A stretch of 57,486 bases of DNA. It comes from Nanobdellota archaeon (lineage in GTDB: Archaea > Nanobdellota > Nanobdellia > Pacearchaeales > GW2011-AR1). The position numbers and the translations under genes were made by a program. Below are positions 1 through 55,504 of this stretch, piece after piece. Each line of letters starts with the position of its first letter. Position 1 is the stretch's first letter. The notes under the pieces were generated by a model. That model saw nothing but the letters and a program-made list of their open reading frames with translations. It was not told the DNA's origin and did no database searches. The stretch lies in contig JBBSXA010000030.1 in assembly GCA_038045985.1 (NCBI GenBank), positions 1 through 57,486 of the forward strand, read 5' to 3'.

Positions 1-1398
1 AGAAAAGGATTTGTTTATCCTTCTGGAGAGATTTATGGAGGATTAGCAGGATTTTGGGATTTTGGAGAAATAGGAGTTGAACTAAAAAATAATATAAAAA
101 AAGAGTGGTGGAAATATTTTGCCGGAAGAGAGGATGTTGTTGGAATTGATGGGGCTATAATAACTCATCCTCAGATTTGGAAAGCTTCTGGCCATGTTGA
201 CAGCTTTAGCGATGTTTTTGTTATATGCAAAAAATGCAAAAAACCATCTAAGATCGATAAATCTGAGACTGGAAAAGTGAAATGTGACTGTGGGGGAGAA
301 TTTGATTTTGATTCTGCTAAAGATTTCAAGTTGATGTTTGAGACAAATGTTGGAGAATACGGGAAAGCTTATCTCAGACCGGAAACAGCTCAATTAATTT
401 TTTCTAATTTCAAACTTGTTTATGAGAATTCCAGATCAAAACTGCCATTTGGAATTGCCCAGATTGGAAAGGCGTTTAGAAATGAAATTGCACCCCGGGA
501 TTTTCTTTTTAGAAGCAGAGAGTTTGAGCAGATGGAGATGCAGTTTTTTGTTGATCCTGAAAAAGCCAACAATTGCAGCTATTATGACAAAATAAAAGAG
601 GTTAGAATAAAAATTCTTGGCGCTGAAAAGAATGAAGAGGCTTTGAGCTTGGCTGAAATGCTAAAAAAAGGAATTTTTAAGAACCAGTGGCACGCTTATT
701 GGCTTTATTACTCTTATAGCTGGTTTTTGGGCTTAGGAATATCTGAGGATAATTTAAGACTTAGGGAACATGAGAAAAAAGAGTTGGCGCACTACGCCAA
801 GGCTGCCGTTGATATTGAGTACAAATTTCCAAGCGGGTGGAGAGAGATTTTTGGGAGCCACGATAGAGGGCAGTTTGATCTTGGAGAGCATGAGAAGTTT
901 TCCAAAAAAGATTTGAAGGTTTTTGATGAGGAAACAAAAAAAAGAGTTCTTCCGCAGGTTGTAGAATCTTCCTTTGGCGTAGAAAGAGCTTTTCTAGCCT
1001 TTATGTTTGATGCTTACTGTTATGATCCTTCAAGGGAAAATATTGTTTTGAAGCTTGATTCGAAGTTAGCTCCTGTTAAGGTCTCTGTTTTTCCTATTGT
1101 CAAAAAGCCTGAATTTGAGAATTTGGCAAGAAAAATCTATGAAGAGTTAAGGGAAGAATGGAATGTTTCTTATGATATTTCCGGCAGTATTGGCAGAAGA
1201 TATTCTAGAAATGATGAAATAGGAACTCCTTATTGCATAACAATTGATGGCGACTCAATTTTAGGGAAAGATGTTACAATAAGAGACAGAAACACAAAAA
1301 AACAGGTTCGTGCCAAGATATCTGAACTTAAAAATATTGTCAAAAATCTTGTCGACGGTAAAATTGAATTTGAAAAATCCGGAAAATTAATCAATTAA
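1..1398 (+). CDS. glyS: glycyl-tRNA synthetase, archaeal/eukaryotic class II type (5' end outside window)
   Basis: Frame 1 is open from nt 1 (RKGFVYPSGEIYGGLAGFWDFGEIGVELKNNIKKEWW) and continuous with track ORF 277..1398. Motifs seen: FRNEIAPRDFLFRSREFEQME and C-terminal IGRRYSRNDEIGTPYCITID. Confidence 0.9.
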   Translation, partial: RKGFVYPSGEIYGGLAGFWDFGEIGVELKNNIKKEWWKYFAGREDVVGIDGAIITHPQIWKASGHVDSFSDVFVICKKCKKPSKIDKSETGKVKCDCGGEFDFDSAKDFKLMFETNVGEYGKAYLRPETAQLIFSNFKLVYENSRSKLPFGIAQIGKAFRNEIAPRDFLFRSREFEQMEMQFFVDPEKANNCSYYDKIKEVRIKILGAEKNEEALSLAEMLKKGIFKNQWHAYWLYYSYSWFLGLGISEDNLRLREHEKKELAHYAKAAVDIEYKFPSGWREIFGSHDRGQFDLGEHEKFSKKDLKVFDEETKKRVLPQVVESSFGVERAFLAFMFDAYCYDPSRENIVLKLDSKLAPVKVSVFPIVKKPEFENLARKIYEELREEWNVSYDISGSIGRRYSRNDEIGTPYCITIDGDSILGKDVTIRDRNTKKQVRAKISELKNIVKNLVDGKIEFEKSGKLIN

Positions 1399-2006: not shown

Positions 2007-2153
2007 TGGCTCTGGGGAGAATTTAACTCCCGACCCCTGCCTGACTCAGCACAATTTGTTGAACGCATAGACTGAAAATTGGAATTTTCTGCCGATTTGC
2101 CGAACTTCATTCTTCTCATGAGAGCAGTGCTCGTAACACTGAGCTACAGAGCC
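2007..2153 (-). tRNA. tRNA with anticodon CAU (Met or Ile2), ~74-nt intron at or next to position 37/38
   Basis: Minus-strand read: GGCTCTG TA GCTC AGTGTTAC GAGC A CTGCT CTCATGA [~74 nt] GGCAG GGGTC GGGAG TTAAATT CTCCC CAGAGCC A. All four stems pair, with one G-U in the anticodon stem. Confidence 0.75.
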
Positions 2154-3538: not shown

Positions 3539-4057
3539 TTATGTGCGTGTCCATGAACATTCGTAATATGAAACATCGCCTTCTTCATCAAGGATTGCAA
3601 GAAGAAGCTTCTTTTTTGTGCTATGAGCCACCCTATTTTTTGCTGCAAATTCCTGCCATGTGAATTTGTTTGATTCTGTGTCTATAAAAACAATCCATTT
3701 TGCATGAGTATCTCCGGGCTTTTTTCCTTTTTCATAAACTCTGAAATCTGCTCCGAATTTTAGCGCTGTTTTGACAATATAGCCTTTATCTCTAAGATCT
3801 TTGAAGACAGTATATTTTGAATAGACTCTTTTATCCAACTTTTGGAGTTTTTTTATTGCCTGCCCTTTATCAAGAATTTTTCCTTTGCTTAAGATTTCCA
3901 GTTTTTCCTTTTCAATTAGGTACAATGCTTCTGTTATCGTGTACTGAATTTTTTCTCCTAGCGGCTCTCCGAAATGGCTTTTTTTGTGAAGAGAGAAAGC
4001 GTCTGCTGAGTTGCTTGTCACAGAGCTTCCTAAAATGTGCGCTTGGATTTTTTCCAT
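3539..4057 (-). CDS. endA: tRNA-splicing endonuclease
   Basis: LRDKGYIVKTALKFGADFRVYEKG...HAKWIVFI...AHSTKKKLLLAI match EndA catalytic-domain motifs. The first ATG is at 4057; the track start at 4078 is a TTG. Confidence 0.85.
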   Translation of the reverse strand: MEKIQAHILGSSVTSNSADAFSLHKKSHFGEPLGEKIQYTITEALYLIEKEKLEILSKGKILDKGQAIKKLQKLDKRVYSKYTVFKDLRDKGYIVKTALKFGADFRVYEKGKKPGDTHAKWIVFIDTESNKFTWQEFAAKNRVAHSTKKKLLLAILDEEGDVSYYECSWTRT

Positions 4058-4109
4058 TGTAAAAAGAATAGAAGGCAATATTTAAAAGTTCCTAGATGAT
4101 TATTGTTTT

Positions 4110-7100
4110 ATGGCATACAACTTCCAATTAATAGAAAAGAAATGGCAGAAGAAGTGGGAAGAAAAGAAGATTTTTCAAGTGAAGGAAAATGAAAAAGGCA
4201 AGAAGAAATTTTATGTCCTTGACATGTTTCCTTACCCCTCTGGAGAAGGTTTGCATATGGGTCATGCTTTTGTTTTTTCCCTAGGAGATATTTATGCCAG
4301 ATACAAGAGGCTTCAAGGATACAATGTTCTTTATCCTATAGGCTATGATTCTCTTGGATTGCCTGCAGAGAATGCTGCAATAAAAAAAGGAATTCATCCG
4401 GAGGTTTATACTGCAAAGTCTATTGCTAACTTTATGAAGCAGCAGAAGGCGATGGGATGGAGTTATGACTGGAACAGAATGTTCAAGACTTCTGATCCTG
4501 AATTTTATGTATGGGATCAGTGGATTTTTCTTAAAATGCTTGAAAAAGGGCTTGCTTGCAGGAAAAAATCTGCTGTTAACTTTTGCAGTAAATGCCAAAC
4601 TGTGCTTGCTAATGAGCAGGTTGTTGGAGGTAAGTGTTGGAGACATGAAGATACTAATGTAGAAATTAAGCATCTTGAGCAATGGTATTACAAAACTACA
4701 AATTATGCTGAAGAGCTGCTTTCAGGTTTAGATAAATTGGAATGGCCTGAAAGAGCTAAAACAATGCAGAGAAATTGGATTGGAAAAAGCTATGGGACAG
4801 AGATTGAGTTTGAAGTTGAGAATCCAGAAAGAAAGATTTCTAATGTTGTTATTGTACATGGAAGTGCTGATGACAAAAATGATAAAGAGTACAATAGACA
4901 TTGGATGATTTGGGCTAGAAAAAGATTGGAAGAAAATGGTATTAAGGTGCTTGCTCCAAATATGCCAGAACCTTGGGGTTCTAGCTATGAATCTTGGAAG
5001 AAAGAATTTGAAAAAATTTCGAACGGTATTAATGAAAATAGTATTTTAATTGGGCATAGCAGAGGTACTGCTTTTTTTGTAAAATGGCTGGGAGAAACTG
5101 GGAAAAAAGTTAAGAAATTAATATTAGTTGCTCCTTGGAAAGTTCCTGATAAGGAATTTAAAAAAAGTTTTTATAATTTTGACATAGACATAACTGTGAA
5201 GAATCAGGTTAATGAAATTGTTTATTTTACTTCTAATAATGAGGAAGCAGATGGAAGAAAAAGTTTGAAGATGTTTTTGGATGTAATTGGTGGCAGGGTT
5301 GTGGAATTAAAGAATCATGGACATTTTACGCGTGAAGAAATGGGGACAGACGAATTCCCTGAAATTTTGGCAGAAATTAATCCAAATGAAAAATGGCCTA
5401 TATTCACAACGAGACCCGATACTGTCTACGGAGTTACTTTTATGGTGATTTCTGCACAACATTCTAGACTTTACGAATTAGTTACAAAAGAACATAAAAA
5501 AAGTGTTGATAATTTTTTGAAGAAACTTGGGAGCGTTTCAGAGAAAGAACTTGAGCTTATGGGAAAAGATGGTGTTTTTACAGGCTCTTATGCAATTAAT
5601 CCAATGACTAAAGAAAGAATTCCTATTTACGCAGGAAATTTTGTTGTTGCAGATTATGGTTCAGGAATGGTTATGGCTGTTCCTGCGCACGACCAGAGAG
5701 ATTATGAATTTGCGAAGAAATATGGTTTGAAAATTAAGCAGGTTATTTCTCCAATGTATACAAATATGACTGGTTCTGATGCTTATAGGCATAATGAAGA
5801 GCCTGTTAAAAGAAAAGCAGTTGTTGCGATTGTTAAAAATCCAAAGAATAACAAATATTTACTTTTGCAGTGGAAGAAAAATGATTGGAGGGGTTTTGTT
5901 ATTGGAGGTCTTGAAAAAGGAGAAGATCTAATAAAAGCTGCTAAAAGAGAGATTGAAGAAGAAACAGGATATAATGATATTAAATTTGTTAGAAAGCTTG
6001 ATGGTGTTGTTCATTCTAGGTTTTACCATGAAGTTAAAAAGCAGAATAGAGAAGCTGAATTTGAAACTATTTACTTTGAGTTAAACAGTGAAAAGAAAAG
6101 CAAAGTAAAGGAAGAAGAAAATAAGATTCATTCTATTGTTTGGATTGATGAAGATAAAGTTGATAGTTTTCTTGTTAGAGATAATGATATTCAAGTTATT
6201 TGGAGAAAGTTTAAAGGCAAGGAGTGTTATGAAGGCTACGGAAAGCTAATTAATTCAGGAGATTTTAATGATCTTGATAATGATGAAGCGAAAGAACATA
6301 TTGTCAAGTGGCTTGAATCTAAAAAACTTGGGGGAAAAAAAGTTCAGTATAGGCTAAAAGATTGGCTTATTTCCAGGCAAAGATATTGGGGAACACCTAT
6401 TCCTATTGTTTATTGCGATAAATGTGGAATTATTCCTTTGCAGGAAAAAGAACTTCCAGTTACACTACCTAAGAATGTAAAGTTTGGAAAAGGAAATCCT
6501 CTTCTTTCCAATGAAAAATGGATTAATACTAATTGTCCTAAATGCAAAGGAAAAGCTAAAAGGGAAACAGACACTATGGACACTTTTGCGAATTCTTCAT
6601 GGTATTATTTAAGATATGCTGATTCAAAAAATAAGAAAAAGATATTTGATTCTAAAATGGCAAACTATTGGTGCCCAATAGATCAGTATATTGGCGGGCC
6701 AGAGCATATAACAATGCATTTAATTTACATAAGATTTTACACAAAATTTTTGAGAGATTTAGGTCTTATTGACTTTGATGAACCTGCTTTGAGATATTTC
6801 ACTCAAGGAGTTGTTAAAGGCAGTGATGGAAGCAGAATGAGCAAGTCTAAAGGAAATGTTGTAGAACCTTTGGATACTATTGAAAAATATGGTGCTGATT
6901 CTTTGAGATTATATTTAATGAGCGCTTCTGCTCCGGATAGTGATTTTGACTGGGATGAGAAAGGCATTCAAAGTAGCTTTAAATTTTTGCATAAAGTTTA
7001 TGATTATTTTTATGATGTTAAATTTAGCAAGGCTGATGAAAGAGTTGAGAGCAAGCTGAACAAGACTGTCAAAGAAGTTGCAAATTTAGTTGAAGATTTT

Positions 7101-7580
7101 AAGCATAATTTGGCAATAATAAAAATTAGGGGATTTTTTGATTATATTTATGAAAAAAAAATTGACAAAAAAACTGTCGAGAGTTTTTTGAAGATTTTGC
7201 ATATTTATTGCCCTTTTATTACTGAGGAAATTTGGGCAAACATTGGCGGAAAAAATTTCATAAGCTTAAGTTCTTGGCCAAAAGTTGATGAAAAAAAGAT
7301 AAATGAAGAGTTTGAAAAAGAAGATAAGATGATTGATGAAGTTGTCAGTGATGTGAATAACATTGTTAAGATAGTTAAAGAGCGCGGAAAAGAAGTTAGC
7401 AAGCTGTATTTGTATGTTATTCCTAAAGATGTCTCAGTTTATTTAGCTAATAAAAGCGAAATAGAGAAGAGAACTACTCTTAAGATGGAAGTTTACGCAG
7501 TCAATGACATAAATAAGAAAGATCCTGAAGGAAAATCTTCAAAGGCAAAGCCAAATCGTCCAGCCATATATTTAGAATAA
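4110..7580 (+). CDS. leuS: leucyl-tRNA synthetase, bacterial-type, with two in-frame domain insertions (1156 aa)
   Basis: FPYPSGEGLHMGHAF (HIGH), GYDSLGLPAENAAIKKG, TTRPDTVYGVTFMV and AVPAHDQRDYEFAKKYGL (CP1 editing), YRLKDWLISRQRYWGTPIP, SKSKGN (KMSKS). Confidence 0.95.
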   Translation: MAYNFQLIEKKWQKKWEEKKIFQVKENEKGKKKFYVLDMFPYPSGEGLHMGHAFVFSLGDIYARYKRLQGYNVLYPIGYDSLGLPAENAAIKKGIHPEVYTAKSIANFMKQQKAMGWSYDWNRMFKTSDPEFYVWDQWIFLKMLEKGLACRKKSAVNFCSKCQTVLANEQVVGGKCWRHEDTNVEIKHLEQWYYKTTNYAEELLSGLDKLEWPERAKTMQRNWIGKSYGTEIEFEVENPERKISNVVIVHGSADDKNDKEYNRHWMIWARKRLEENGIKVLAPNMPEPWGSSYESWKKEFEKISNGINENSILIGHSRGTAFFVKWLGETGKKVKKLILVAPWKVPDKEFKKSFYNFDIDITVKNQVNEIVYFTSNNEEADGRKSLKMFLDVIGGRVVELKNHGHFTREEMGTDEFPEILAEINPNEKWPIFTTRPDTVYGVTFMVISAQHSRLYELVTKEHKKSVDNFLKKLGSVSEKELELMGKDGVFTGSYAINPMTKERIPIYAGNFVVADYGSGMVMAVPAHDQRDYEFAKKYGLKIKQVISPMYTNMTGSDAYRHNEEPVKRKAVVAIVKNPKNNKYLLLQWKKNDWRGFVIGGLEKGEDLIKAAKREIEEETGYNDIKFVRKLDGVVHSRFYHEVKKQNREAEFETIYFELNSEKKSKVKEEENKIHSIVWIDEDKVDSFLVRDNDIQVIWRKFKGKECYEGYGKLINSGDFNDLDNDEAKEHIVKWLESKKLGGKKVQYRLKDWLISRQRYWGTPIPIVYCDKCGIIPLQEKELPVTLPKNVKFGKGNPLLSNEKWINTNCPKCKGKAKRETDTMDTFANSSWYYLRYADSKNKKKIFDSKMANYWCPIDQYIGGPEHITMHLIYIRFYTKFLRDLGLIDFDEPALRYFTQGVVKGSDGSRMSKSKGNVVEPLDTIEKYGADSLRLYLMSASAPDSDFDWDEKGIQSSFKFLHKVYDYFYDVKFSKADERVESKLNKTVKEVANLVEDFKHNLAIIKIRGFFDYIYEKKIDKKTVESFLKILHIYCPFITEEIWANIGGKNFISLSSWPKVDEKKINEEFEKEDKMIDEVVSDVNNIVKIVKERGKEVSKLYLYVIPKDVSVYLANKSEIEKRTTLKMEVYAVNDINKKDPEGKSSKAKPNRPAIYLE
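4842..5385 (+). other. Insertion 1 in LeuRS: YdeN/RBBP9-like alpha/beta serine hydrolase domain
   Basis: VVIVHGS...HWMIWARKRLEENGIKVLAPNMPEP...ILIGHSRGTAF...LILVAPW...NHGHFTREE. This is the family-typical order with a GHSxG nucleophile and a C-terminal HGHF. It lies between the IEFEV segment and TTRPDT. Confidence 0.7.
5754..6235 (+). other. Insertion 2 in LeuRS: NUDIX hydrolase domain
   Basis: Perfect Nudix box GGLEKGEDLIKAAKREIEEETGY (GX5EX7REUXEEXGU) at ~5904..5972. It lies between the CP1 end (KQVISP) and the YGKLINSGDF segment. Confidence 0.8.
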
Positions 7581-7656: not shown

Positions 7657-9426
7657 CTACTCAAGCACAGCCTTAATTCTTCTTACCCCTGCAGAAACTG
7701 ATTCTTCCTTGATTATTTTGAATTTTCCAATGTCTTTTGTGTTTTTGGCATGAGGGCCTGAGCAAAATTCCTTTGAGAAATTTCCTATAGAATATATTGA
7801 TACAATTTTACCATACTTTTCTTCAAATGAGCCTATTGCTCCTGATTTTTTAGCCTGCTCTAAATTCATTTCTTCTCTTTTTATTTCCAGAGATTTTTTA
7901 ATTTGTTCATTTACAAGATTTTCAATTTGCTTTAGCTCTGATTCTGTCAATTTTCTTTCAAAGTTAAAGTCTAATCTCAATCTTTCTGGAGTTATGTTTG
8001 AGCCTTTCTGGAATATATTTTTATTTTTCAGCACTTGTCTAAGAGCGGTCAAGAGCAAATGCGTTGCTGTGTGAAGTTTTGTTGTTTGCTCAGAATTATC
8101 TGCCAAGCCACTTTTGAATTTTCCTGCAGAGGCTGTTTGAGAAAGTTTTTGATGCTCCTCTAATTTTTTAAAGAATGATTTTTCATCGATATTAATATTT
8201 TTCTCTTCTGCTAATTCTTTTGTCATTTCAAGCGGAAAGCCATAACTTTGATATAATAAAAAGACATTTTCTCCAGATATTCTTTTTTTCTTTTTTGTTA
8301 TGTTATCAAAAAGGCTTAGGCCCTTTTCAAGGGTTTTTTCAAATTTTTCTTCTTCTCTATTTATCTCATTGTAAATAAATTCTCTTTTTTTGTGTATGTC
8401 TTTGTAGTCTGAATAGGTTTCAAATACTTTTTCTGCAATTGGATTTATTAAATTTTGGTCTGTGAGTCCCAATTTTCTTAGGTTGATTATTGCTCTTCTT
8501 ATTAATCTTCTAAGAACGTATCCTTGCTCTTTGTTGCTTGGTATTATTTCTTCTGCTAATATGAATACTGAGGCTTTAATGTGGTCTGCAATTATTCTCA
8601 TTGTTTTTTTATGATCATTGTATTTCCTTTTTGATAACTCTTCAATCTTTTGTATTATGGGCTTCCAGACTTCTGTTTGATAGTTGTCTGTTGTTCCATT
8701 TAAAATTGCTAAAGTTCTTTCAACACCCATTCCTGTATCAACGTTTTTTTGCTTTGCTGGAAGATATTTTCCATTTTCATCTTTAATATACTCCATGAAG
8801 ACGTCATTCCAGATTTCAACCCATTTGTTCCCACCAGTTGCTAAGGTAGAATCATTTGGATTAAACTCTTCAGGTACTTTATTTGATTTATCTTTCCAGT
8901 AAAACATTTCTGTGTCAGGTCCGCAAGGTCCTGTTGTTCCTGCTGGTCCCCACCAATTGTCTTCTTTTCCTAATGGAGTGATTTTGTTAATCCCTAAAGA
9001 TTTCCAAATTTTTTCAGATTCAGTATCTCTCTTTGTAGTTTTATCACCTGCAAAAATTGTAACTGCTAATTTTTCTTTGGGAATTTTAAGCTCTTTTGTT
9101 AAAAACTGGAAACTGAATTCAATAGCTTCTTTTTTCCAGTAGTTTCCTAAAGACCAATTGCCCAACATCTCAAAAAATGTATGATGCGTTTCATCTCCGA
9201 CTTCATCTATGTCGCCGGTTCTTATGCATTTTTGTAGGCTAACTAGATTTTTCCCAAGAGGATGCTTTTGACCTAAAAGATAGGGAACTAAAGGATGCAT
9301 TCCTGCTGTTGTAAACAAAACTGACGGATCTTCTTTTGGAACTAGTGATGAGTTTTCTATACGTTTATGCCCTTTTGATTCAAAGAATTTTATGTACTTT
9401 TCAATAAGCTGTTTGCGGGTTATCAT
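7657..9426 (-). CDS. alaS: alanyl-tRNA synthetase, short bacterial-type form (589 aa, no C-Ala domain)
   Basis: FTTAGMHPLVPYLLG, FFEMLGNWSLGNYWKKEAI, editing-domain HTATHLL and CSGPH motifs. Confidence 0.9.
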   Translation of the reverse strand: MITRKQLIEKYIKFFESKGHKRIENSSLVPKEDPSVLFTTAGMHPLVPYLLGQKHPLGKNLVSLQKCIRTGDIDEVGDETHHTFFEMLGNWSLGNYWKKEAIEFSFQFLTKELKIPKEKLAVTIFAGDKTTKRDTESEKIWKSLGINKITPLGKEDNWWGPAGTTGPCGPDTEMFYWKDKSNKVPEEFNPNDSTLATGGNKWVEIWNDVFMEYIKDENGKYLPAKQKNVDTGMGVERTLAILNGTTDNYQTEVWKPIIQKIEELSKRKYNDHKKTMRIIADHIKASVFILAEEIIPSNKEQGYVLRRLIRRAIINLRKLGLTDQNLINPIAEKVFETYSDYKDIHKKREFIYNEINREEEKFEKTLEKGLSLFDNITKKKKRISGENVFLLYQSYGFPLEMTKELAEEKNINIDEKSFFKKLEEHQKLSQTASAGKFKSGLADNSEQTTKLHTATHLLLTALRQVLKNKNIFQKGSNITPERLRLDFNFERKLTESELKQIENLVNEQIKKSLEIKREEMNLEQAKKSGAIGSFEEKYGKIVSIYSIGNFSKEFCSGPHAKNTKDIGKFKIIKEESVSAGVRRIKAVLE

Positions 9427-24342: not shown

Positions 24343-26658
24343 ATGCTGCAGCAGAGATTAACAATTGAAGATCTTTGCAGGAAGCTGAGGCCCGTATTTG
24401 GAAAAAAGATAGATGATATTTATCTTAGATATGCCATGGCAGAGTCTAGAGAAGAAAAGGAAGATATTATGCATATGATCAGCGCGCTTTACAGTAAAAA
24501 CCTGAATAAACTTCTTGATAACCAGATACTTTTGGAGCCGCCTAATGAGGATGCTCTGGATGGAGACTATCATTTGGCCGATGTTAGCTATGCTGGAAAA
24601 AAGATATTCTCATTCAATCTTAGAGAAAAAGACTGGTCTAGGCATGTTTGCATAAGCGGAATGAGTGGAAGCGGAAAAACTACCTTGGCTTTTAACATTC
24701 TTCAGACTTTTATTGATCATGATAAGCCTTTTTTAGTTTTTGACTGGAAAAAAAGCTTTAGACCTTTGCTTTTAGCAAGCCAGGAAGTTGTTTGTTTTAC
24801 AATAGGAGATGAATCTGCAAGCAATATGTTTAAAACAAATATAAACAGGCCTCCTAAAGGGATTGACCCTAAAGAATGGATAAATGTTTTGTGTGATCTT
24901 ATTATTGAAAGTTTTTCAGCTTCTTTTGGTGTTCATAAAGTCTTGCTTGAGACTCTTGATGAGGCTTTTGAGCATTTTGGAGTTTATAATGGGTCTGACA
25001 ACTACCCTACATGGAACAATATTAAATGGTATCTTGATCAGAAAATAGAGAAGACAAAAGGAAGAGAAGCAGGATGGCTTGAAAGCGCCCTCAGAATAGT
25101 GAGCGTTTTGACTTTTGGAAACTTTGGAAAAGTCTGCAACAGCAAAGAGAAAGGAGTGCTTTCCGTTGAAGATCTTCTTAACAAGAAAGTTGTTTTTGAG
25201 CTGAATGCCCTTAGCAATATAGAGAAAAAGTTTTTCTGCGAGTTTGTCCTTACATACATTTACAAGCTTAAGAAAGCAAGACAAAAAAATTCTGAGAGCA
25301 AGTTCGTCCATGCAATTGTTGTGGATGAAGCGCATAATATTTTTCTCAAAGGAAATCCTCATTTTACAAAAGAATCTGTAACAGACATGATATACAGAGA
25401 AATGAGAGAATACGGAACAAGCCTTATCTGTTTGGACCAGCACATCTCAAAATTAAGCGATACTGTTAAGGGAAACAGCGCTTGCAACATTGCCTTCCAG
25501 CAGCAGCTTTCCCAGGATATTTATGATATAAGCGGACTGACACAATTGAGAGATCAGCAGCAGTTTTTTTCCATGCTTCCAGTCGGGTCTGCGATAGTCA
25601 AGCTTTCTGAAAGATACACTTCGCCGTTTTTGATTGAAGTTCATAATGCTGAGCTTAGGGGAAAAACAGTCACAGATGAAGAGGTTAAGAGCAGAGCAGA
25701 GTTTCATATTATGGGAATTAGCGTTGAGAAGGAAGCCGATAAAGAGTTCAACGATGCTTTAATTGGCAGGAAAACCATGGAAAATCCCGTTAAAAGAAAA
25801 GAAGTTAGCATCGAAGATATTAAGCACGATAGAACTGTTTTCAAAGCTGAGGATATTCTTCCTTTAGATGATGGAGGAATTGTTTATGAAGTTATCAATG
25901 AACCTCTTGGAGGAAGTTTCCCAAAAAGAGCGAACAACGAGTTCCTTGCCAATGAACCTTCTGGAGGAGTGTTTCCAAGAGCAGATTCTGAAATTCTTGC
26001 TGATGAATATTTTGGGAAAATGTTTCCAAAAACTAACGAAGTTCCAAAACCAGTATTTGCAATAAATCAAAATTTTGAAAGTGTTCCAAGAGCAGAAATA
26101 ATTGTTAATAAAATTTTTGAAAATAAAGAAGATGATGTTTTTTATGAACTTAAAAAGATGGCTTACGGTATTTCTTTGACTCCTAGACAAGAGGTTTTAT
26201 TTGATTATATAAAAGGAAGAGTTAAGCTAGGCGACAGTTTAAAGGAACTTGAAAATACTCTTTTGTTCTACAAACAGGAAGGCAATTATAAAGCTGAAGA
26301 TGTTTTTGTTGCTGTAAATCATTATCTGTCGAGCAAGCTTGCTAATCTTTTTCCAAGCAATAAAAAGGAAGAGAAAGCATATTCTCAAATTGTTACCCCT
26401 ATAAAGAGTCGAAAGATTTATAAAGAAAATCATTCTAGAATAACTGGCAGTTCAGCGTCTGACGAGGAAAGAGTAATCTCTTTTCTGAGCGCTAATCCTG
26501 GAAAGGATTTTGGCACGGTTGAGCTGTACAAAGAGCTTGGATTGTCTTCAAGGAAAGGAAACAAGATTAAGAATGAATTGCTTGAGAGAAAGATTATAAT
26601 CATAGAAGAAAAGAAAAATGACAAAGGCTGGAAAAAAATTATTGCATTGGCAAAGTAG
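24343..26658 (+). CDS. HerA/DUF87-type (VirB4/CedB-like) P-loop ATPase with a C-terminal winged-helix domain
   Basis: RHVCISGMSGSGKTTLAFNIL (Walker A), PFLVFDWKKSF, AIVVDEAHNIF (Walker B), ICLDQHISKLS. The C-terminal tail is wHTH-like (SFLSANPGKDFGTVELYKELGLSSRKGNKIKNELLERKII). Confidence 0.75.
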   Translation: MLQQRLTIEDLCRKLRPVFGKKIDDIYLRYAMAESREEKEDIMHMISALYSKNLNKLLDNQILLEPPNEDALDGDYHLADVSYAGKKIFSFNLREKDWSRHVCISGMSGSGKTTLAFNILQTFIDHDKPFLVFDWKKSFRPLLLASQEVVCFTIGDESASNMFKTNINRPPKGIDPKEWINVLCDLIIESFSASFGVHKVLLETLDEAFEHFGVYNGSDNYPTWNNIKWYLDQKIEKTKGREAGWLESALRIVSVLTFGNFGKVCNSKEKGVLSVEDLLNKKVVFELNALSNIEKKFFCEFVLTYIYKLKKARQKNSESKFVHAIVVDEAHNIFLKGNPHFTKESVTDMIYREMREYGTSLICLDQHISKLSDTVKGNSACNIAFQQQLSQDIYDISGLTQLRDQQQFFSMLPVGSAIVKLSERYTSPFLIEVHNAELRGKTVTDEEVKSRAEFHIMGISVEKEADKEFNDALIGRKTMENPVKRKEVSIEDIKHDRTVFKAEDILPLDDGGIVYEVINEPLGGSFPKRANNEFLANEPSGGVFPRADSEILADEYFGKMFPKTNEVPKPVFAINQNFESVPRAEIIVNKIFENKEDDVFYELKKMAYGISLTPRQEVLFDYIKGRVKLGDSLKELENTLLFYKQEGNYKAEDVFVAVNHYLSSKLANLFPSNKKEEKAYSQIVTPIKSRKIYKENHSRITGSSASDEERVISFLSANPGKDFGTVELYKELGLSSRKGNKIKNELLERKIIIIEEKKNDKGWKKIIALAK

Positions 26659-55411: not shown

Positions 55412-55504
55412 CGCCCAGGGTAGGACTCGAACCTACGACCCCACGGTCACTGTGTTTTATCAAACGTAACAGCCGTGTGCTCTAACCGACTGAGCTACCC
55501 GGGC
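55412..55504 (-). tRNA. tRNA-Asn (anticodon GUU) with a ~19-nt intron at 37/38
   Basis: Minus strand: GCCCGGG TA GCTC AGTCGGTT AGAGC A CACGG CTGTTA [cgtttgataaaacacagtg] A CCGTG GGGTC GTAGG TTCGAGT CCTAC CCTGGGC G. Confidence 0.85.

What the first reader, a model, noticed from the sequence alone, without database searches (positions are those of the whole stretch)
4842..6235. LeuRS carries two complete foreign enzyme domains inserted in frame: a YdeN/RBBP9-like serine hydrolase and a NUDIX hydrolase
Seen: LeuRS is 1156 aa, and its bacterial-type blocks are collinear and intact (HIGH, CP1 TTRPDT...AHDQRDYEFA, YRLKDW..RQRYWG, KMSKS). About 180 aa lie between the IEFEV segment and TTRPDT, with alpha/beta-hydrolase motifs in family order (VIVHGS, GHSRG nucleophile, HGHF). 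About 160 aa lie between the CP1 end and YGKLINSG, with a perfect Nudix box GGLEKGEDLIKAAKREIEEETGY. Neither insert has intein termini. Established: aaRSs make Ap4A and misactivated adenylates and must clear mischarged tRNA. NUDIX enzymes hydrolyse dinucleoside polyphosphates and nucleotide-X substrates. YdeN/RBBP9 proteins are serine esterases. Inference: the inserts flank the editing domain and may be auxiliary proofreading or signal-clearing modules, with the esterase acting on the aminoacyl ester and the NUDIX on adenylate or Ap4A. I know of no described LeuRS with this architecture.
Basis: partly seen in the sequence, partly recalled or inferred. Interest (0 to 1): 0.72.

Follow-up and report, generated by a model that had tools for sequence, protein, structure and literature searches.

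The report
LeuRS with two nested hydrolase domains
An archaeal leucyl-tRNA synthetase carries two complete, apparently active enzymes (a serine hydrolase and a Nudix hydrolase) spliced into loops of its proofreading domain. The same graft recurs many times in tiny symbiotic archaea and bacteria, which suggests an undescribed accessory activity tied to this essential enzyme.

Summary
ORF 4110-7580 (+) is an intact 1156-aa bacterial-type LeuRS. Nested in frame in two surface loops of its CP1 editing domain are a PF06821 (YdeN/RBBP9) serine hydrolase (aa 237-428) and a NUDIX domain (aa 548-705). Both score above Pfam thresholds, keep their catalytic residues and model as confident globular domains.

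It is not an assembly chimera. Among the 121 closest LeuRS (the window's plus 120 from DPANN archaea), 49 carry the hydrolase only, 10 the NUDIX only, 13 both and 42 neither. CPR bacteria have the same grafts, at five or more sites in LeuRS.

Insert and host histories are decoupled. The window's core is 83% identical to an insert-less LeuRS, while its inserts are closest to those of distant LeuRS and to free-standing genes. Free-standing copies of the hydrolase often lie directly beside insert-less leuS. In the two scans made, every large protein that could be typed as hosting either domain was LeuRS.

Best reading: accessory hydrolases repeatedly recruited to LeuRS. They probably act on aminoacyl-X and (di)nucleoside-polyphosphate compounds that LeuRS makes or binds. 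Substrates are unknown. No paper describing this architecture was found.

The parts
4110..7580 (+). leuS: 1156-aa bacterial-type leucyl-tRNA synthetase carrying both inserts, read through to its stop codon
   Evidence: TIGR00396, 860 bits. AF2 model mean pLDDT 90.0, pTM 0.75. Foldseek top hit is T. thermophilus LeuRS 2BTE, target-normalised TM 0.77.
4110..4817 (+). N-terminal catalytic (Rossmann) part, aa 1-236, including HIGH (HMGH, 4254-4265). It ends with the first strand of the CP1 hairpin (TEIEFEV).
   Evidence: It is 87.5% identical in protein to the insert-less P0009.
4818..5393 (+). Insert 1, aa 237-428: a complete YdeN/RBBP9-type serine hydrolase (PF06821, aa 247-420) grafted into the turn of the first CP1 beta-hairpin. 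Insert-less relatives have about 4 residues here.
   Evidence: Pfam. Full-length alignment to YdeN 1UXO, E 5e-8. Clean in-frame indel against L086. Free-standing proteins begin and end at the insert borders. pLDDT 81-96 apart from one loop.
4857..4862 (+). His250-Gly251 (the 'HG' motif of VVIVHG), which I take to be the oxyanion-hole motif
   Evidence: Conserved in 64 of 65 and 65 of 65 embedded homologues. The oxyanion-hole role is assigned from general knowledge of alpha/beta hydrolases, not tested here.
5052..5066 (+). Nucleophile elbow GHSRG; Ser317 (5058-5060) is the putative catalytic serine
   Evidence: Ser is present in 65 of 65 sequences. It is invariant in the alignment with free-standing proteins.
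5241..5243 (+). Glu378, the putative triad acid (Asp in about half of the homologues)
   Evidence: The column is Asp or Glu in 63 of 65 sequences. It aligns with the second Asp of YdeN 'SKDD'.
5322..5324 (+). His405 of HGHF, the putative catalytic histidine
   Evidence: Present in 65 of 65 sequences. Invariant.
5394..5750 (+). Core of the CP1 editing domain, aa 429-547, with the threonine-rich TTRPDT (5406-5423) and HDQRD (5688-5702) editing motifs intact
   Evidence: PF13603. T433, T434, R435, T438, R530 and D531 are invariant across 102 LeuRS of all architectures.
5751..6224 (+). Insert 2, aa 548-705: a complete NUDIX hydrolase domain (PF00293, aa 567-684) in a loop near the C-terminal end of CP1. 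Insert-less relatives have about 7 residues here.
   Evidence: Pfam. Border comparison. AF2 of the domain alone gives pLDDT 90.5, pTM 0.83. Free-standing 160-190-aa homologues align over its whole length.
5904..5972 (+). Nudix box GGLEKGEDLIKAAKREIEEETGY (G599 to Y621), with the metal-binding Glu residues
   Evidence: Among 24 site-2 inserts (23 NUDIX plus the non-NUDIX P0113): G599, G600, E617 and G620 in 24 of 24; R613, E614 and E618 in 23; E605 in 21.
6225..7577 (+). Rest of LeuRS, aa 706-1156: return to the catalytic core, KMSKS (RMSKS, 6834-6848), anticodon-binding domain and C-terminal domain

Best explanation
**What is shown.** The gene encodes a working bacterial-type LeuRS of a DPANN archaeon. 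Two complete small enzymes have been grafted in frame into two permissive surface loops of its CP1 editing domain. The grafts are a YdeN/RBBP9-type serine hydrolase (Ser317, His405, Glu378) and a Nudix pyrophosphohydrolase whose nearest characterised structural neighbours are (di)nucleoside-polyphosphate hydrolases. Both derive from free-standing genes of DPANN and CPR organisms. Such grafts have arisen repeatedly, and they do not share the history of the LeuRS that carries them.

**What is inferred.** Selection keeps these hydrolases physically or operonically coupled to LeuRS because they act in cis on small molecules that LeuRS makes or binds. The serine hydrolase would cleave an alpha-aminoacyl-X bond through an aminoacyl-enzyme intermediate. 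Candidate substrates are an aminoacyl ester, such as a mischarged or stray aminoacyl-nucleoside or aminoacyl-tRNA end, or an aminoacyl-nucleotide mimic. The Nudix domain would cleave a pyrophosphate-linked nucleotide such as Ap4A or ApnA formed from the adenylate. Together they would form a LeuRS-tethered clearance or detoxification module. The exact substrates are not established.
For: - **Domains are real and complete.** Both pass Pfam gathering scores. Insert 1 aligns end to end with YdeN. Free-standing proteins start and stop at the insert borders. AF2 models both as confident domains.
- **Catalytic residues are under selection.** Ser317 and His405 are in 65 of 65 sequences, HG in 64-65 of 65, and the acid column is Asp or Glu in 63 of 65. 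The Nudix-box Arg, Glu and Gly positions are kept in 21-24 of 24 sequences.
- **The architecture recurs in independent assemblies.** Among the 121 closest LeuRS, 49 have the hydrolase only, 10 the NUDIX only and 13 both. P0010 was seen on 22 contigs.
- **Grafting converged on LeuRS.** The hydrolase occurs at Q~236, Q~552, Q~772 and Q~969. The NUDIX occurs at Q~209 and Q~552 and at further positions in the C-terminal half. Copies occur in tandem, with up to three NUDIX in one LeuRS, in both DPANN archaea and CPR bacteria.
- **The host is LeuRS.** Among 80 GTDB loci, all 12 copies of the hydrolase that lie in ORFs longer than 885 codons are in LeuRS. About 105 of the 150 best NUDIX representatives are LeuRS or LeuRS fragments. 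All 11 informative metagenome loci are LeuRS.
- **Gene neighbourhood agrees.** Five GTDB loci have an intact free-standing hydrolase gene abutting or overlapping bacterial-type leuS: L006, L010, L030, L039 and L065. L001 and L002 show the same arrangement. L001 shares extended synteny with the window, and there the hydrolase is a separate gene between leuS and alaS.
- **The chemistry is plausible.** RBBP9 forms an aminoacyl-enzyme and needs a free alpha-amine (PMC8866121). It is also reported as a valacyclovir (valyl-ester) hydrolase (reference seen in PMC7730578). The nearest characterised structures to the NUDIX include Ap4A and Ap6A hydrolases, RppH and MutT1.
- **The two domains also pair without LeuRS.** Ser_hydrolase-NUDIX fusions exist as free-standing proteins: P0137, L062 and L069.
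Against: - No biochemical data exist, and the substrate cannot be read from homology. The top structural hit, 2AZW, has unknown function.
- Presence of the inserts is patchy among close relatives. P0009, with a core 83% identical, has neither insert.
- The hydrolase and the NUDIX occur independently of each other in LeuRS (Fisher p = 0.82).
- The canonical CP1 editing site is intact in all architectures, so nothing indicates a missing editing activity that needs replacing.
- Most homologues of the hydrolase are free-standing and not next to leuS (63 of 80 GTDB loci are free-standing). Some are membrane-anchored.
Confidence: 0.45

Rival explanations
1. **Built-in antidote.** The inserts protect LeuRS from natural aminoacyl-nucleotide ('Trojan horse') inhibitors such as leucyl-adenylate mimics, by cleaving them at the target enzyme. 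This is a special case of the tethered-clearance idea, but with an external toxin as substrate rather than a by-product of LeuRS.
For: - Known immunity enzymes against aminoacyl-nucleotide antibiotics are of similar kinds: the GNAT MccE2, the peptidases MccF and MccG that cut the aminoacyl-nucleotide bond, and the phosphoramidase MccH (PMC9239234).
- NCBIfam lists an IleRS with an embedded GNAT domain (NF040702).
- Other grafts at the same loops give weak, sub-threshold matches to nucleotidyltransferase and HAD families, and a CPR IleRS-like protein carries a histidine phosphatase.
- LeuRS-targeting agrocin 84 and a dedicated immune LeuRS exist (PDB 3ZGZ and 5AH5, in the list).
- Patchy, laterally exchanged distribution is typical of accessory or conflict traits.
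- Membrane-anchored cytoplasmic variants of the hydrolase fit action on imported compounds.
Against: - The case is purely inferential.
- No such antibiotic is known from CPR or DPANN habitats.
- RBBP9/YdeN enzymes have not been shown to cleave acyl-sulfamate or acyl-phosphoramidate bonds.
- The Pfam matches for the nucleotidyltransferase-like and HAD-like inserts are below threshold.
Confidence: 0.15
2. **Co-expression hitch-hiking.** The inserts are ordinary housekeeping enzymes, for example an aminopeptidase for scavenged peptides and a house-cleaning Nudix. In these tiny genomes they were fused into an essential, constitutively expressed gene. The CP1 loops simply tolerate insertions, and there is no catalytic link to LeuRS.
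For: - Most homologues of the hydrolase are free-standing and not near leuS.
- The same loops carry unrelated inserts in other relatives.
- Presence is patchy, and the two domains occur independently of each other.
- The only rigorously shown RBBP9 activity is aminopeptidase activity on peptides.
- CPR and DPANN organisms are reduced-genome symbionts (general knowledge).
Against: - It does not explain why every large host that could be typed is LeuRS.
- It does not explain independent grafts at five or more internal sites in two domains of life.
- It does not explain why intact free-standing copies abut leuS at five of the 29 archaeal GTDB loci. By my rough estimate, about 0.2% of genes would lie next to any given gene in a genome of about 1000 genes.
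- Fusion of neighbouring genes usually gives end-to-end fusions rather than nested ones (general knowledge).
Confidence: 0.25
3. **Selfish cassette.** The inserts are mobile elements that spread between leuS alleles by recombination at conserved flanks, and persist because the loops tolerate them, much as inteins persist in conserved genes.
For: - Host and insert histories are decoupled. In 16 of 16 bootstrap triplets the core and the insert gave opposite answers. Pairwise identity of core and insert is essentially uncorrelated (Spearman rho 0.12 and -0.02).
- Embedded and free-standing hydrolases interleave in the tree.
- Tandem and multiple copies occur.
Against: - There is no endonuclease, integrase or intein motif and no splicing termini.
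- No terminal direct or inverted repeats lie at the borders.
- The hydrolytic catalytic residues are strictly conserved, which a purely selfish element does not need.
- Third-codon positions are near saturation between the closest copies, so the transfers are not recent.
Confidence: 0.1
4. **Assembly or annotation artefact.** The inserts result from a chimeric contig that joins leuS fragments to unrelated genes.
For: The window is a metagenome-type sequence, and I could not map reads to it.
Against: - One uninterrupted frame runs through four junctions.
- GC content in the inserts (0.30-0.34) is close to that of the flanking regions.
- The same junctions occur in dozens of independent assemblies from NCBI, JGI, ENA and Logan.
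- Against L086 the difference is a clean 564-nt in-frame indel with 78-85% nucleotide identity in the core.
Confidence: 0.01

Closest known systems
Bacterial-type LeuRS (T. thermophilus 2BTE/1H3N, E. coli 4AQ7), including the bacterial-type LeuRS found in some archaea
   Same: Same order of blocks (HIGH, Zn module, CP1 with the threonine-rich and HDQRD editing motifs, KMSKS, anticodon-binding and C-terminal domains). It matches TIGR00396, and its fold matches at target-normalised TM 0.73-0.80.
   Different: No solved LeuRS in the Foldseek list covers the two extra enzyme domains: the top LeuRS hits have targets of 762-876 residues and query-normalised TM of only 0.50-0.59. No paper describing a LeuRS with such domains nested in CP1 was found.
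YdeN (B. subtilis, 1UXO) and RBBP9 (2QS9, 7OEX): Pfam PF06821 serine hydrolases
   Same: Full-length alignment to YdeN, with the HG motif, the GHSxG nucleophile and the GHF histidine. RBBP9 is an aminopeptidase that needs a free alpha-amine and forms an aminoacyl-enzyme.
   Different: Here the domain is nested inside another enzyme. The acid residue is Glu rather than Asp in the window. The substrate is unknown. The residues RBBP9 uses to bind the alpha-amine (Glu108, Tyr99) could not be aligned with confidence.
Nudix (di)nucleoside-polyphosphate hydrolases and RppH (A. aeolicus Ap4A hydrolase 3I7U, T. thermophilus Ndx1 1VC8, Chlamydia CT771 4MPO, E. coli RppH)
   Same: Canonical Nudix box and fold. 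A profile of the subfamily matches 3I7U at E 3.4e-8 over the whole domain. Foldseek target-normalised TM is 0.76-0.78 to 3I7U and Ndx1. An aromatic pair lies 17-18 residues after the box. From memory, a Tyr there is an ApnA-hydrolase signature.
   Different: Sequence identity is only 14-25%. The top hit, 2AZW, is uncharacterised. This subfamily has its own conserved K..NR and H...W motifs, and about 105 of its 150 best representatives are LeuRS or LeuRS fragments.
IleRS with an embedded GNAT domain (NCBIfam NF040702, 'ileS_w_GNAT')
   Same: Judging by the model's name, it is another class Ia synthetase that carries an extra small-molecule-modifying enzyme domain.
   Different: The synthetase and the inserted fold are both different. 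I did not examine its insertion site, and I found no functional study of it.
Free-standing trans-editing factors (YbaK/ProX, AlaX, DTD) and the cis editing domains of synthetases
   Same: The concept is shared: a hydrolytic module attached to, or working alongside, a synthetase to cleave aminoacyl esters.
   Different: The folds are unrelated. Membership is not claimed. The analogy rests on function only and is untested.
Inteins and other in-frame insertions in conserved genes
   Same: In-frame insertion at conserved sites of an essential gene, with patchy distribution and a history decoupled from the host gene.
   Different: There are no intein splicing motifs or endonuclease. The inserts are retained in the mature protein as enzymes with conserved active sites.

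Membership tests
Bacterial-type LeuRS (TIGR00396) | Whole-protein match above the curated cutoff | tested here: met
   860 bits against a cutoff of 548.4. The archaeal-type model TIGR00395 scores only 232.6 against 648.5.
Bacterial-type LeuRS (TIGR00396) | Class I signatures HIGH and KMSKS | tested here: met
   HMGH at 4254-4265 and RMSKS at 6834-6848. H49, G51, H52, M910, S911, K912 and S913 are invariant across 102 LeuRS sequences (the window's plus 101 relatives).
Bacterial-type LeuRS (TIGR00396) | CP1 editing domain with the threonine-rich motif and the conserved Asp | tested here: met
   PF13603 at E 2.1e-55. TTRPDT and HDQRD are present. T433, T434, R435, T438 and D531 are invariant.
Bacterial-type LeuRS (TIGR00396) | Leucylation and editing activity | not testable with these tools
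   Needs an enzyme assay.
PF06821 Ser_hydrolase (YdeN/RBBP9) | Profile match above the gathering score over the whole domain | tested here: met
   50.6 bits against 22, covering profile positions 2-167 of 172. YdeN 1UXO matches at E 5e-8 over residues 8-172.
PF06821 Ser_hydrolase (YdeN/RBBP9) | Ser-His-acid triad plus the HG motif | tested here: met
   Ser317 and His405 in 65 of 65 sequences, HG in 64-65 of 65, and the acid column Asp or Glu in 63 of 65, with Glu378 in the window.
PF06821 Ser_hydrolase (YdeN/RBBP9) | Alpha/beta-hydrolase fold | tested here: inconclusive
   The AF2 model of the region is confident and shows alternating strands and helices. I ran no separate fold search on insert 1.
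PF06821 Ser_hydrolase (YdeN/RBBP9) | Hydrolysis of alpha-aminoacyl substrates with a free amine (the RBBP9 activity) | not testable with these tools
   Only RBBP9 has been characterised. Its amine-binding residues could not be aligned with confidence.
NUDIX (PF00293) | Profile match above the gathering score | tested here: met
   63.8 bits against 21.1.
NUDIX (PF00293) | Nudix box GX5EX7REUXEEXGU | tested here: met
   GGLEKGEDLIKAAKREIEEETGY fits every fixed position except the final hydrophobic residue, which is Tyr. The fixed positions are kept in 21-24 of 24 homologues.
NUDIX (PF00293) | Nudix alpha/beta/alpha fold | tested here: met
   AF2 pLDDT 90.5. Foldseek gives 471 PDB matches at E <= 0.001, and all 50 listed are Nudix proteins.
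Nudix Ap4A/ApnA-hydrolase subgroup | Closest characterised relatives are ApnA hydrolases, and a Tyr lies about 16-18 residues after the box (signature recalled from memory) | tested here: inconclusive
   3I7U, 1F3Y, 4MPO and 1VC8 are among the best hits, but so are MutT1, NudI, NudB, RppH and an uncharacterised protein. The aromatic pair F638-Y639 is present, and the pair is conserved in the family.
Intein | N-terminal Cys/Ser, C-terminal His-Asn followed by Cys/Ser/Thr, and Hint-domain blocks | tested here: not met
   Insert 1 begins ENPERK and ends NPNEK followed by W. Insert 2 begins PMYTN and ends KGKE followed by C, with no His-Asn. Pfam finds no Hint or endonuclease domain.
Transposon-like or cassette element | Terminal direct or inverted repeats, or a recombinase | tested here: not met
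   No repeat pair lies at the insert borders, and no recombinase domain is present in the ORF.

The most novel reading that the evidence does not exclude
LeuRS in DPANN archaea and CPR bacteria acts as a scaffold for a previously unrecognised, repeatedly evolved accessory activity. A tethered aminoacyl-X hydrolase and a nucleotide pyrophosphatase together destroy aminoacyl-nucleotide species at the synthetase. That would be either a third, non-CP1 proofreading or clearance route, or built-in immunity to leucyl-adenylate-mimic antibiotics. The modules are exchanged laterally between leuS genes and free-standing genes.
Probability: 0.3. Interest if true: 0.9.

Novelty: new variant of a known kind. 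Interest (0 to 1): 0.72.

Why it matters
Synthetases are among the most conserved and best-studied enzymes, and their accessory domains have repeatedly revealed new biology. Here two catalytically intact foreign enzymes sit inside the editing domain. The same graft has evolved many times, at five or more sites, in the two great radiations of ultra-small symbionts, one archaeal and one bacterial. In relatives without the graft, the hydrolase gene often lies directly beside leuS.

That pattern is strong comparative evidence for an unknown activity coupled to leucine charging. It could concern fidelity, by-product clearance or antibiotic immunity. It also gives the poorly understood YdeN/RBBP9 family and one Nudix subfamily a concrete and testable functional context. 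The clean natural presence/absence variants (for example the window against P0009, P0004 and P0010) are ready-made constructs for experiments and for protein-engineering studies of permissive sites in LeuRS.

Tried and rejected
- **Intein or mobile-element reading.** Rejected. There are no splicing termini, no Hint or endonuclease domains and no border repeats.
- **Assembly chimera.** Rejected, because the same junctions occur in many independent assemblies and the difference from L086 is a clean in-frame indel.
- **Vertical co-inheritance of inserts with many losses.** Rejected for the window. LeuRS with the nearest cores that carry inserts have the most divergent inserts: P0003 has core 0.74 and insert 1 0.42; P0002 has core 0.80 and NUDIX 0.33. 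All 16 bootstrap triplets were decisive.
- **Recent transfer.** Not supported. Third-position identity is about 0.58-0.59 in the inserts and 0.49-0.57 in the adjacent N-terminal and CP1 core, which is near saturation.
- **Degenerate, non-catalytic inserts.** Rejected on residue conservation.
- **Correlation of the hydrolase and NUDIX inserts within LeuRS.** None found.
- **Paralogues of either insert elsewhere in the window.** None found.
- **Word-index search with the NUDIX insert.** It returned only two proteins, and the context of P0242 was uninformative.
- **First metagenome scan with alignment A3.** It failed because the alignment was too divergent. The repeat with A4 used a generic Nudix-box pattern, so only about the top 12 loci were informative.
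- **Foldseek with the full-length model.** It returned only LeuRS structures.
- **Model coordinates.** They are not exposed, so docking of the inserts relative to the editing and synthetic sites could not be measured.
- **L073.** The hydrolase next to an archaeal-type LeuRS-like gene has an in-frame stop, so I did not count it.
- **Pfam on the other inserts at the same loops.** Only sub-threshold hints or no match at all.


Full report
**1. The observation**

The window has one long ORF at 4110-7580 (+) of 1156 aa. It is a bacterial-type LeuRS: TIGR00396 scores 860 bits against a cutoff of 548, while the archaeal-type model falls far below its cutoff.

Pfam places two extra domains inside it. 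PF06821 Ser_hydrolase lies at aa 247-420 (E 2.8e-13, 50.6 bits against a gathering score of 22, nearly the whole profile). PF00293 NUDIX lies at aa 567-684 (E 2.1e-17, 63.8 bits against 21.1). The LeuRS editing-domain profile PF13603 matches in two separate stretches, the best at aa 426-552 between the two inserts.

Comparison with insert-less relatives fixes the limits of the inserts:
- Insert 1 is aa 237-428 (nt 4818-5393). It replaces a turn of about 4 residues in the hairpin 'EILFEV-NGKx-WPIFTTRPDT'.
- Insert 2 is aa 548-705 (nt 5751-6224). It replaces a loop of about 7 residues between 'KIKQVIS' and 'AYxGxGKLINSG'.

**2. Are the inserts real, folded and active?**

Insert 1 aligns end to end with B. 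subtilis YdeN (1UXO, E 5e-8) and partly with human RBBP9. Across 65 LeuRS that carry it, Ser317 (in GHSxG) and His405 (in GHF) are in 65 of 65 sequences and the HG motif in 64-65 of 65. The acid position is Asp or Glu in 63 of 65. The window has 'TSNNE', with Glu378 at that column.

Among 24 site-2 inserts, of which 23 are NUDIX, the Nudix-box Gly, Arg and Glu positions are kept in 21-24.

An AlphaFold2 model of the whole protein, built on 102 sequences, has mean pLDDT 90.0 and pTM 0.75. Both inserts are modelled at about 81-97, apart from one loop. The NUDIX domain modelled alone reaches pLDDT 90.5. The full model matches bacterial LeuRS structures (T. thermophilus 2BTE, target-normalised TM 0.77). 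No solved LeuRS covers the inserts.

The canonical CP1 editing residues (T433, T434, R435, T438, R530, D531) are invariant across 102 LeuRS of all architectures.

**3. It is not a chimera, and it is common**

The 120 closest database proteins are LeuRS. Where a source names them, they come from DPANN archaea (Pacearchaeota, Woesearchaeota, Nanoarchaeota). Aligned together with the window's protein (121 in all), they fall into clear classes:

| Architecture | Count |
|---|---|
| Hydrolase only | 49 |
| Neither insert | 42 |
| Both inserts | 13 |
| NUDIX only | 10 |
| Other inserts at the same loops | 7 |

The junctions are the same throughout. One NUDIX-bearing LeuRS (P0010) was seen on 22 contigs from several samples.

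L086 carries the closest core (P0009, 83% identical). It has the window's gene order: a 303-aa ORF, the tRNA-splicing endonuclease gene, leuS and, further on, alaS. Its leuS differs by a clean 564-nt in-frame indel at site 1, with 78-85% nucleotide identity in the core. GC content in the inserts is close to that of the flanking regions.

**4. Where the inserts come from**

Free-standing PF06821 proteins of 180-195 aa are 50-70% identical to insert 1. Where a source names them, they come from DPANN archaea and from Patescibacteria (CPR). They begin (M..N.IIVHG) and end (FPELLxEVLK) exactly at the insert borders, so the insert is a whole protein spliced in frame. Free-standing NUDIX proteins of 160-190 aa (34-48% identity) likewise align over all of insert 2. 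This defines a subfamily with its own K..NR and H...W motifs.

**5. Host and insert histories are decoupled**

The window's core is closest to insert-less LeuRS (P0009 0.83, P0018 0.80, P0014 0.79). Insert 1 is closest to P0004 (0.73, core 0.62) and to the free-standing P0121 (70%). Insert 2 is closest to P0001 and P0010 (0.78 and 0.75, cores 0.63-0.64). P0002 has a core 0.80 identical, but its NUDIX is only 0.33 identical.

In 16 of 16 triplet tests, column bootstrapping gave P = 1.000 for one relative being closer on the core and P = 0.000 for the same relative on the insert. Pairwise core and insert identities are essentially uncorrelated (Spearman rho 0.12 and -0.02).

In a neighbour-joining tree of 189 hydrolase domains, embedded and free-standing forms interleave. 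Fourteen embedded copies have a free-standing nearest neighbour. Third-codon positions are near saturation, so these events are not recent. No repeats flank the inserts.

The neighbour-joining trees are crude. The triplet tests do not depend on them.

**6. The link to LeuRS is specific and convergent**

*Hydrolase.* A scan of GTDB species representatives found 362 relatives of the hydrolase, and I analysed the best 80 loci.
- 63 copies are free-standing.
- 12 copies lie in ORFs longer than 885 codons, and all of those ORFs are LeuRS.
- Seven of the archaeal LeuRS carry the domain at site 1, and three carry it at site 2 (L035, L046, L072).
- Two CPR bacteria also have it in LeuRS: L012 (Saccharibacteria, site 2) and L047 (Paceibacterota, with the hydrolase at site 1 and a NUDIX at site 2).
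- Further sites are Q~772 (L096, P0335, P0342) and Q~969 (a second copy in P0079).

*NUDIX.* About 105 of the 150 best 50%-identity representatives are LeuRS or LeuRS fragments. The domain occurs at Q~552, at Q~209, in tandem and in the C-terminal half. P0243 carries three NUDIX domains. All 11 informative metagenome loci are LeuRS.

*Neighbourhood.* Intact free-standing hydrolase genes abut or overlap bacterial-type leuS in L001, L002, L006, L010, L030, L039 and L065, with spacings ranging from a 4-nt overlap to 27 nt at the loci where I measured them. L001 shares the window's extended synteny (leuS, alaS, TFIIE-alpha, rhomboid, deoxyhypusine synthase). There the hydrolase is a separate gene between leuS and alaS. 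L006 encodes P0121, the closest free-standing relative of the window's insert 1, directly upstream of leuS.

**7. What the domains probably do**

RBBP9 is the characterised member of PF06821. It is a serine aminopeptidase that requires a free alpha-amine and forms an aminoacyl-enzyme (PMC8866121). It is also reported as a valacyclovir (valyl-ester) hydrolase (Shenoy et al. 2020, seen only as a reference in PMC7730578). The family therefore acts on alpha-aminoacyl-X bonds, which is the chemistry of an aminoacyl ester.

A profile of the NUDIX subfamily matches an uncharacterised protein best (2AZW). Next come the A. aeolicus Ap4A hydrolase (3I7U, E 3.4e-8), a decapping Nudix effector and the lupin Ap4A hydrolase. 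Foldseek gives the same picture: MutT1, NudI, CT771, RppH, 3I7U at target-normalised TM 0.78, and Ndx1 at 0.76. ADP-ribose pyrophosphatases score lower. This favours a (di)nucleoside-polyphosphate or NTP-type substrate, but it does not fix one.

Free-standing Ser_hydrolase-NUDIX fusions exist (P0137, L062, L069), as do membrane-anchored forms of the hydrolase (L040, L058). Within LeuRS the two domains occur independently of each other (Fisher p = 0.82).

**8. Interpretation**

*Shown.* The gene encodes an intact LeuRS with two complete, conserved and confidently folded hydrolase domains in CP1 loops. Such grafts have arisen repeatedly and are exchanged laterally. The association with LeuRS is specific, both by nesting and by gene neighbourhood.

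*Inferred.* The domains work in cis on small molecules that LeuRS makes or binds: aminoacyl esters or aminoacyl-nucleotide species for the hydrolase, and ApnA or other nucleotide pyrophosphates for the NUDIX. I give this 0.45.

An antibiotic-antidote version is attractive (0.15), because known immunity enzymes against aminoacyl-nucleotide antibiotics are a GNAT, peptidases and a phosphoramidase (PMC9239234), because NCBIfam lists an IleRS with an embedded GNAT, and because the distribution is patchy. The other rivals are neutral co-expression hitch-hiking (0.25), a selfish cassette (0.1) and an artefact (0.01).

The main weaknesses of a plain 'extra proofreading' reading are that the CP1 editing site is intact everywhere, that presence is patchy, and that a Nudix enzyme cannot cleave the acyl-phosphate bond of an adenylate.

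**9. Novelty**

Searches of the paper library found no description of a LeuRS with these nested domains. The proteins are in public databases under generic names. I rate this a new variant of a known kind: a synthetase with accessory domains, here enzymes nested in CP1. The evolutionary pattern is unusually informative.

Noticed in passing
P0017, P0030, P0087, P0042, P0085, P0115, P0043 (site 2); P0113 (site 2); P0115 (site 1): The same two CP1 loops carry other inserts in relatives. One is an unknown domain of about 120-136 aa with no significant Pfam match ('GFWNEF..FYFIFKHK' or 'GGAWYADS' types). One is a 170-aa nucleotidyltransferase-like insert (PF10706, E 0.0018, below threshold). One is a 134-aa HAD-like insert (PF13419, E 0.016, below threshold).
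   Followed up: partly
L086 1908-4877 (P0009), insert after Q aa 772: The closest core relative lacks both inserts. It has a different 130-aa insert in the catalytic core after the CDKC zinc motif, with no Pfam match. The Ser_hydrolase occupies the same site in L096, P0335 and P0342.
   Followed up: partly
L049 2317-5988 and 6004-6576 (Candidatus Yanofskybacteria): A 1223-aa IleRS-like class I synthetase carries an embedded histidine phosphatase domain (PF00300, E 6e-31). A free-standing Ser_hydrolase gene starts 16 nt downstream of it. Nested enzymes are therefore not limited to LeuRS in CPR bacteria.
   Followed up: partly
L004 2517-3479 (P0137); L062 1728-2702; L069 5980-6963; L040 5308-6561; L058 622-1899: Free-standing two-domain Ser_hydrolase plus NUDIX proteins occur in CPR bacteria. 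So do variants of the hydrolase preceded by a signal or transmembrane segment and a coiled coil.
   Followed up: partly
L001 3337-4404; L010 6564-7574; L039 5738-6808; L006 3366-4535; L086 4964-6067: An ORF of about 340-390 aa follows leuS or the Ser_hydrolase gene in these relatives, with a C-terminal 'KYGL.E.Y' motif in four of them. No Pfam match is on record for the L001 and L086 copies. No such gene lies between leuS and alaS in the window.
   Followed up: no
window 2007-2153 (-) and 55412-55504 (-): Rfam calls a tRNA spanning 147 nt that ARAGORN misses, which probably means a long intron. It lies about 1.4 kb from the tRNA-splicing endonuclease gene (3539-4078). The tRNA-Thr at 55412-55504 is 93 nt long, so it probably contains an intron too.
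   Followed up: no
window 277-1395 (+), 4110-7580 (+), 7657-9426 (-): Three synthetase genes lie within 9.5 kb: a 373-aa class II enzyme (tRNA-synt_2b plus HGTP_anticodon), LeuRS, and a short 589-aa AlaRS that ends with the tRNA_SAD domain.
   Followed up: no
L073 5980-6700: A Ser_hydrolase reading frame lies directly upstream of an archaeal-type LeuRS-like gene (941 aa). It has an in-frame stop at the conserved Trp (FLVR*LGE). This may be a pseudogene, a sequencing error or a recoded codon.
   Followed up: partly
L008 5281-9297 (Woesearchaeota); P0243: Two extreme architectures were seen. One is a 1338-aa LeuRS with two tandem alpha/beta-hydrolase domains at site 1 plus a NUDIX at site 2. The other is an 1140-aa LeuRS with three NUDIX domains.
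   Followed up: yes
window 24343-26655 (+): A 771-aa protein gives HerA/DUF87 helicase-like, ResIII and weak STAND-NTPase matches. It is unrelated to the finding.
   Followed up: no
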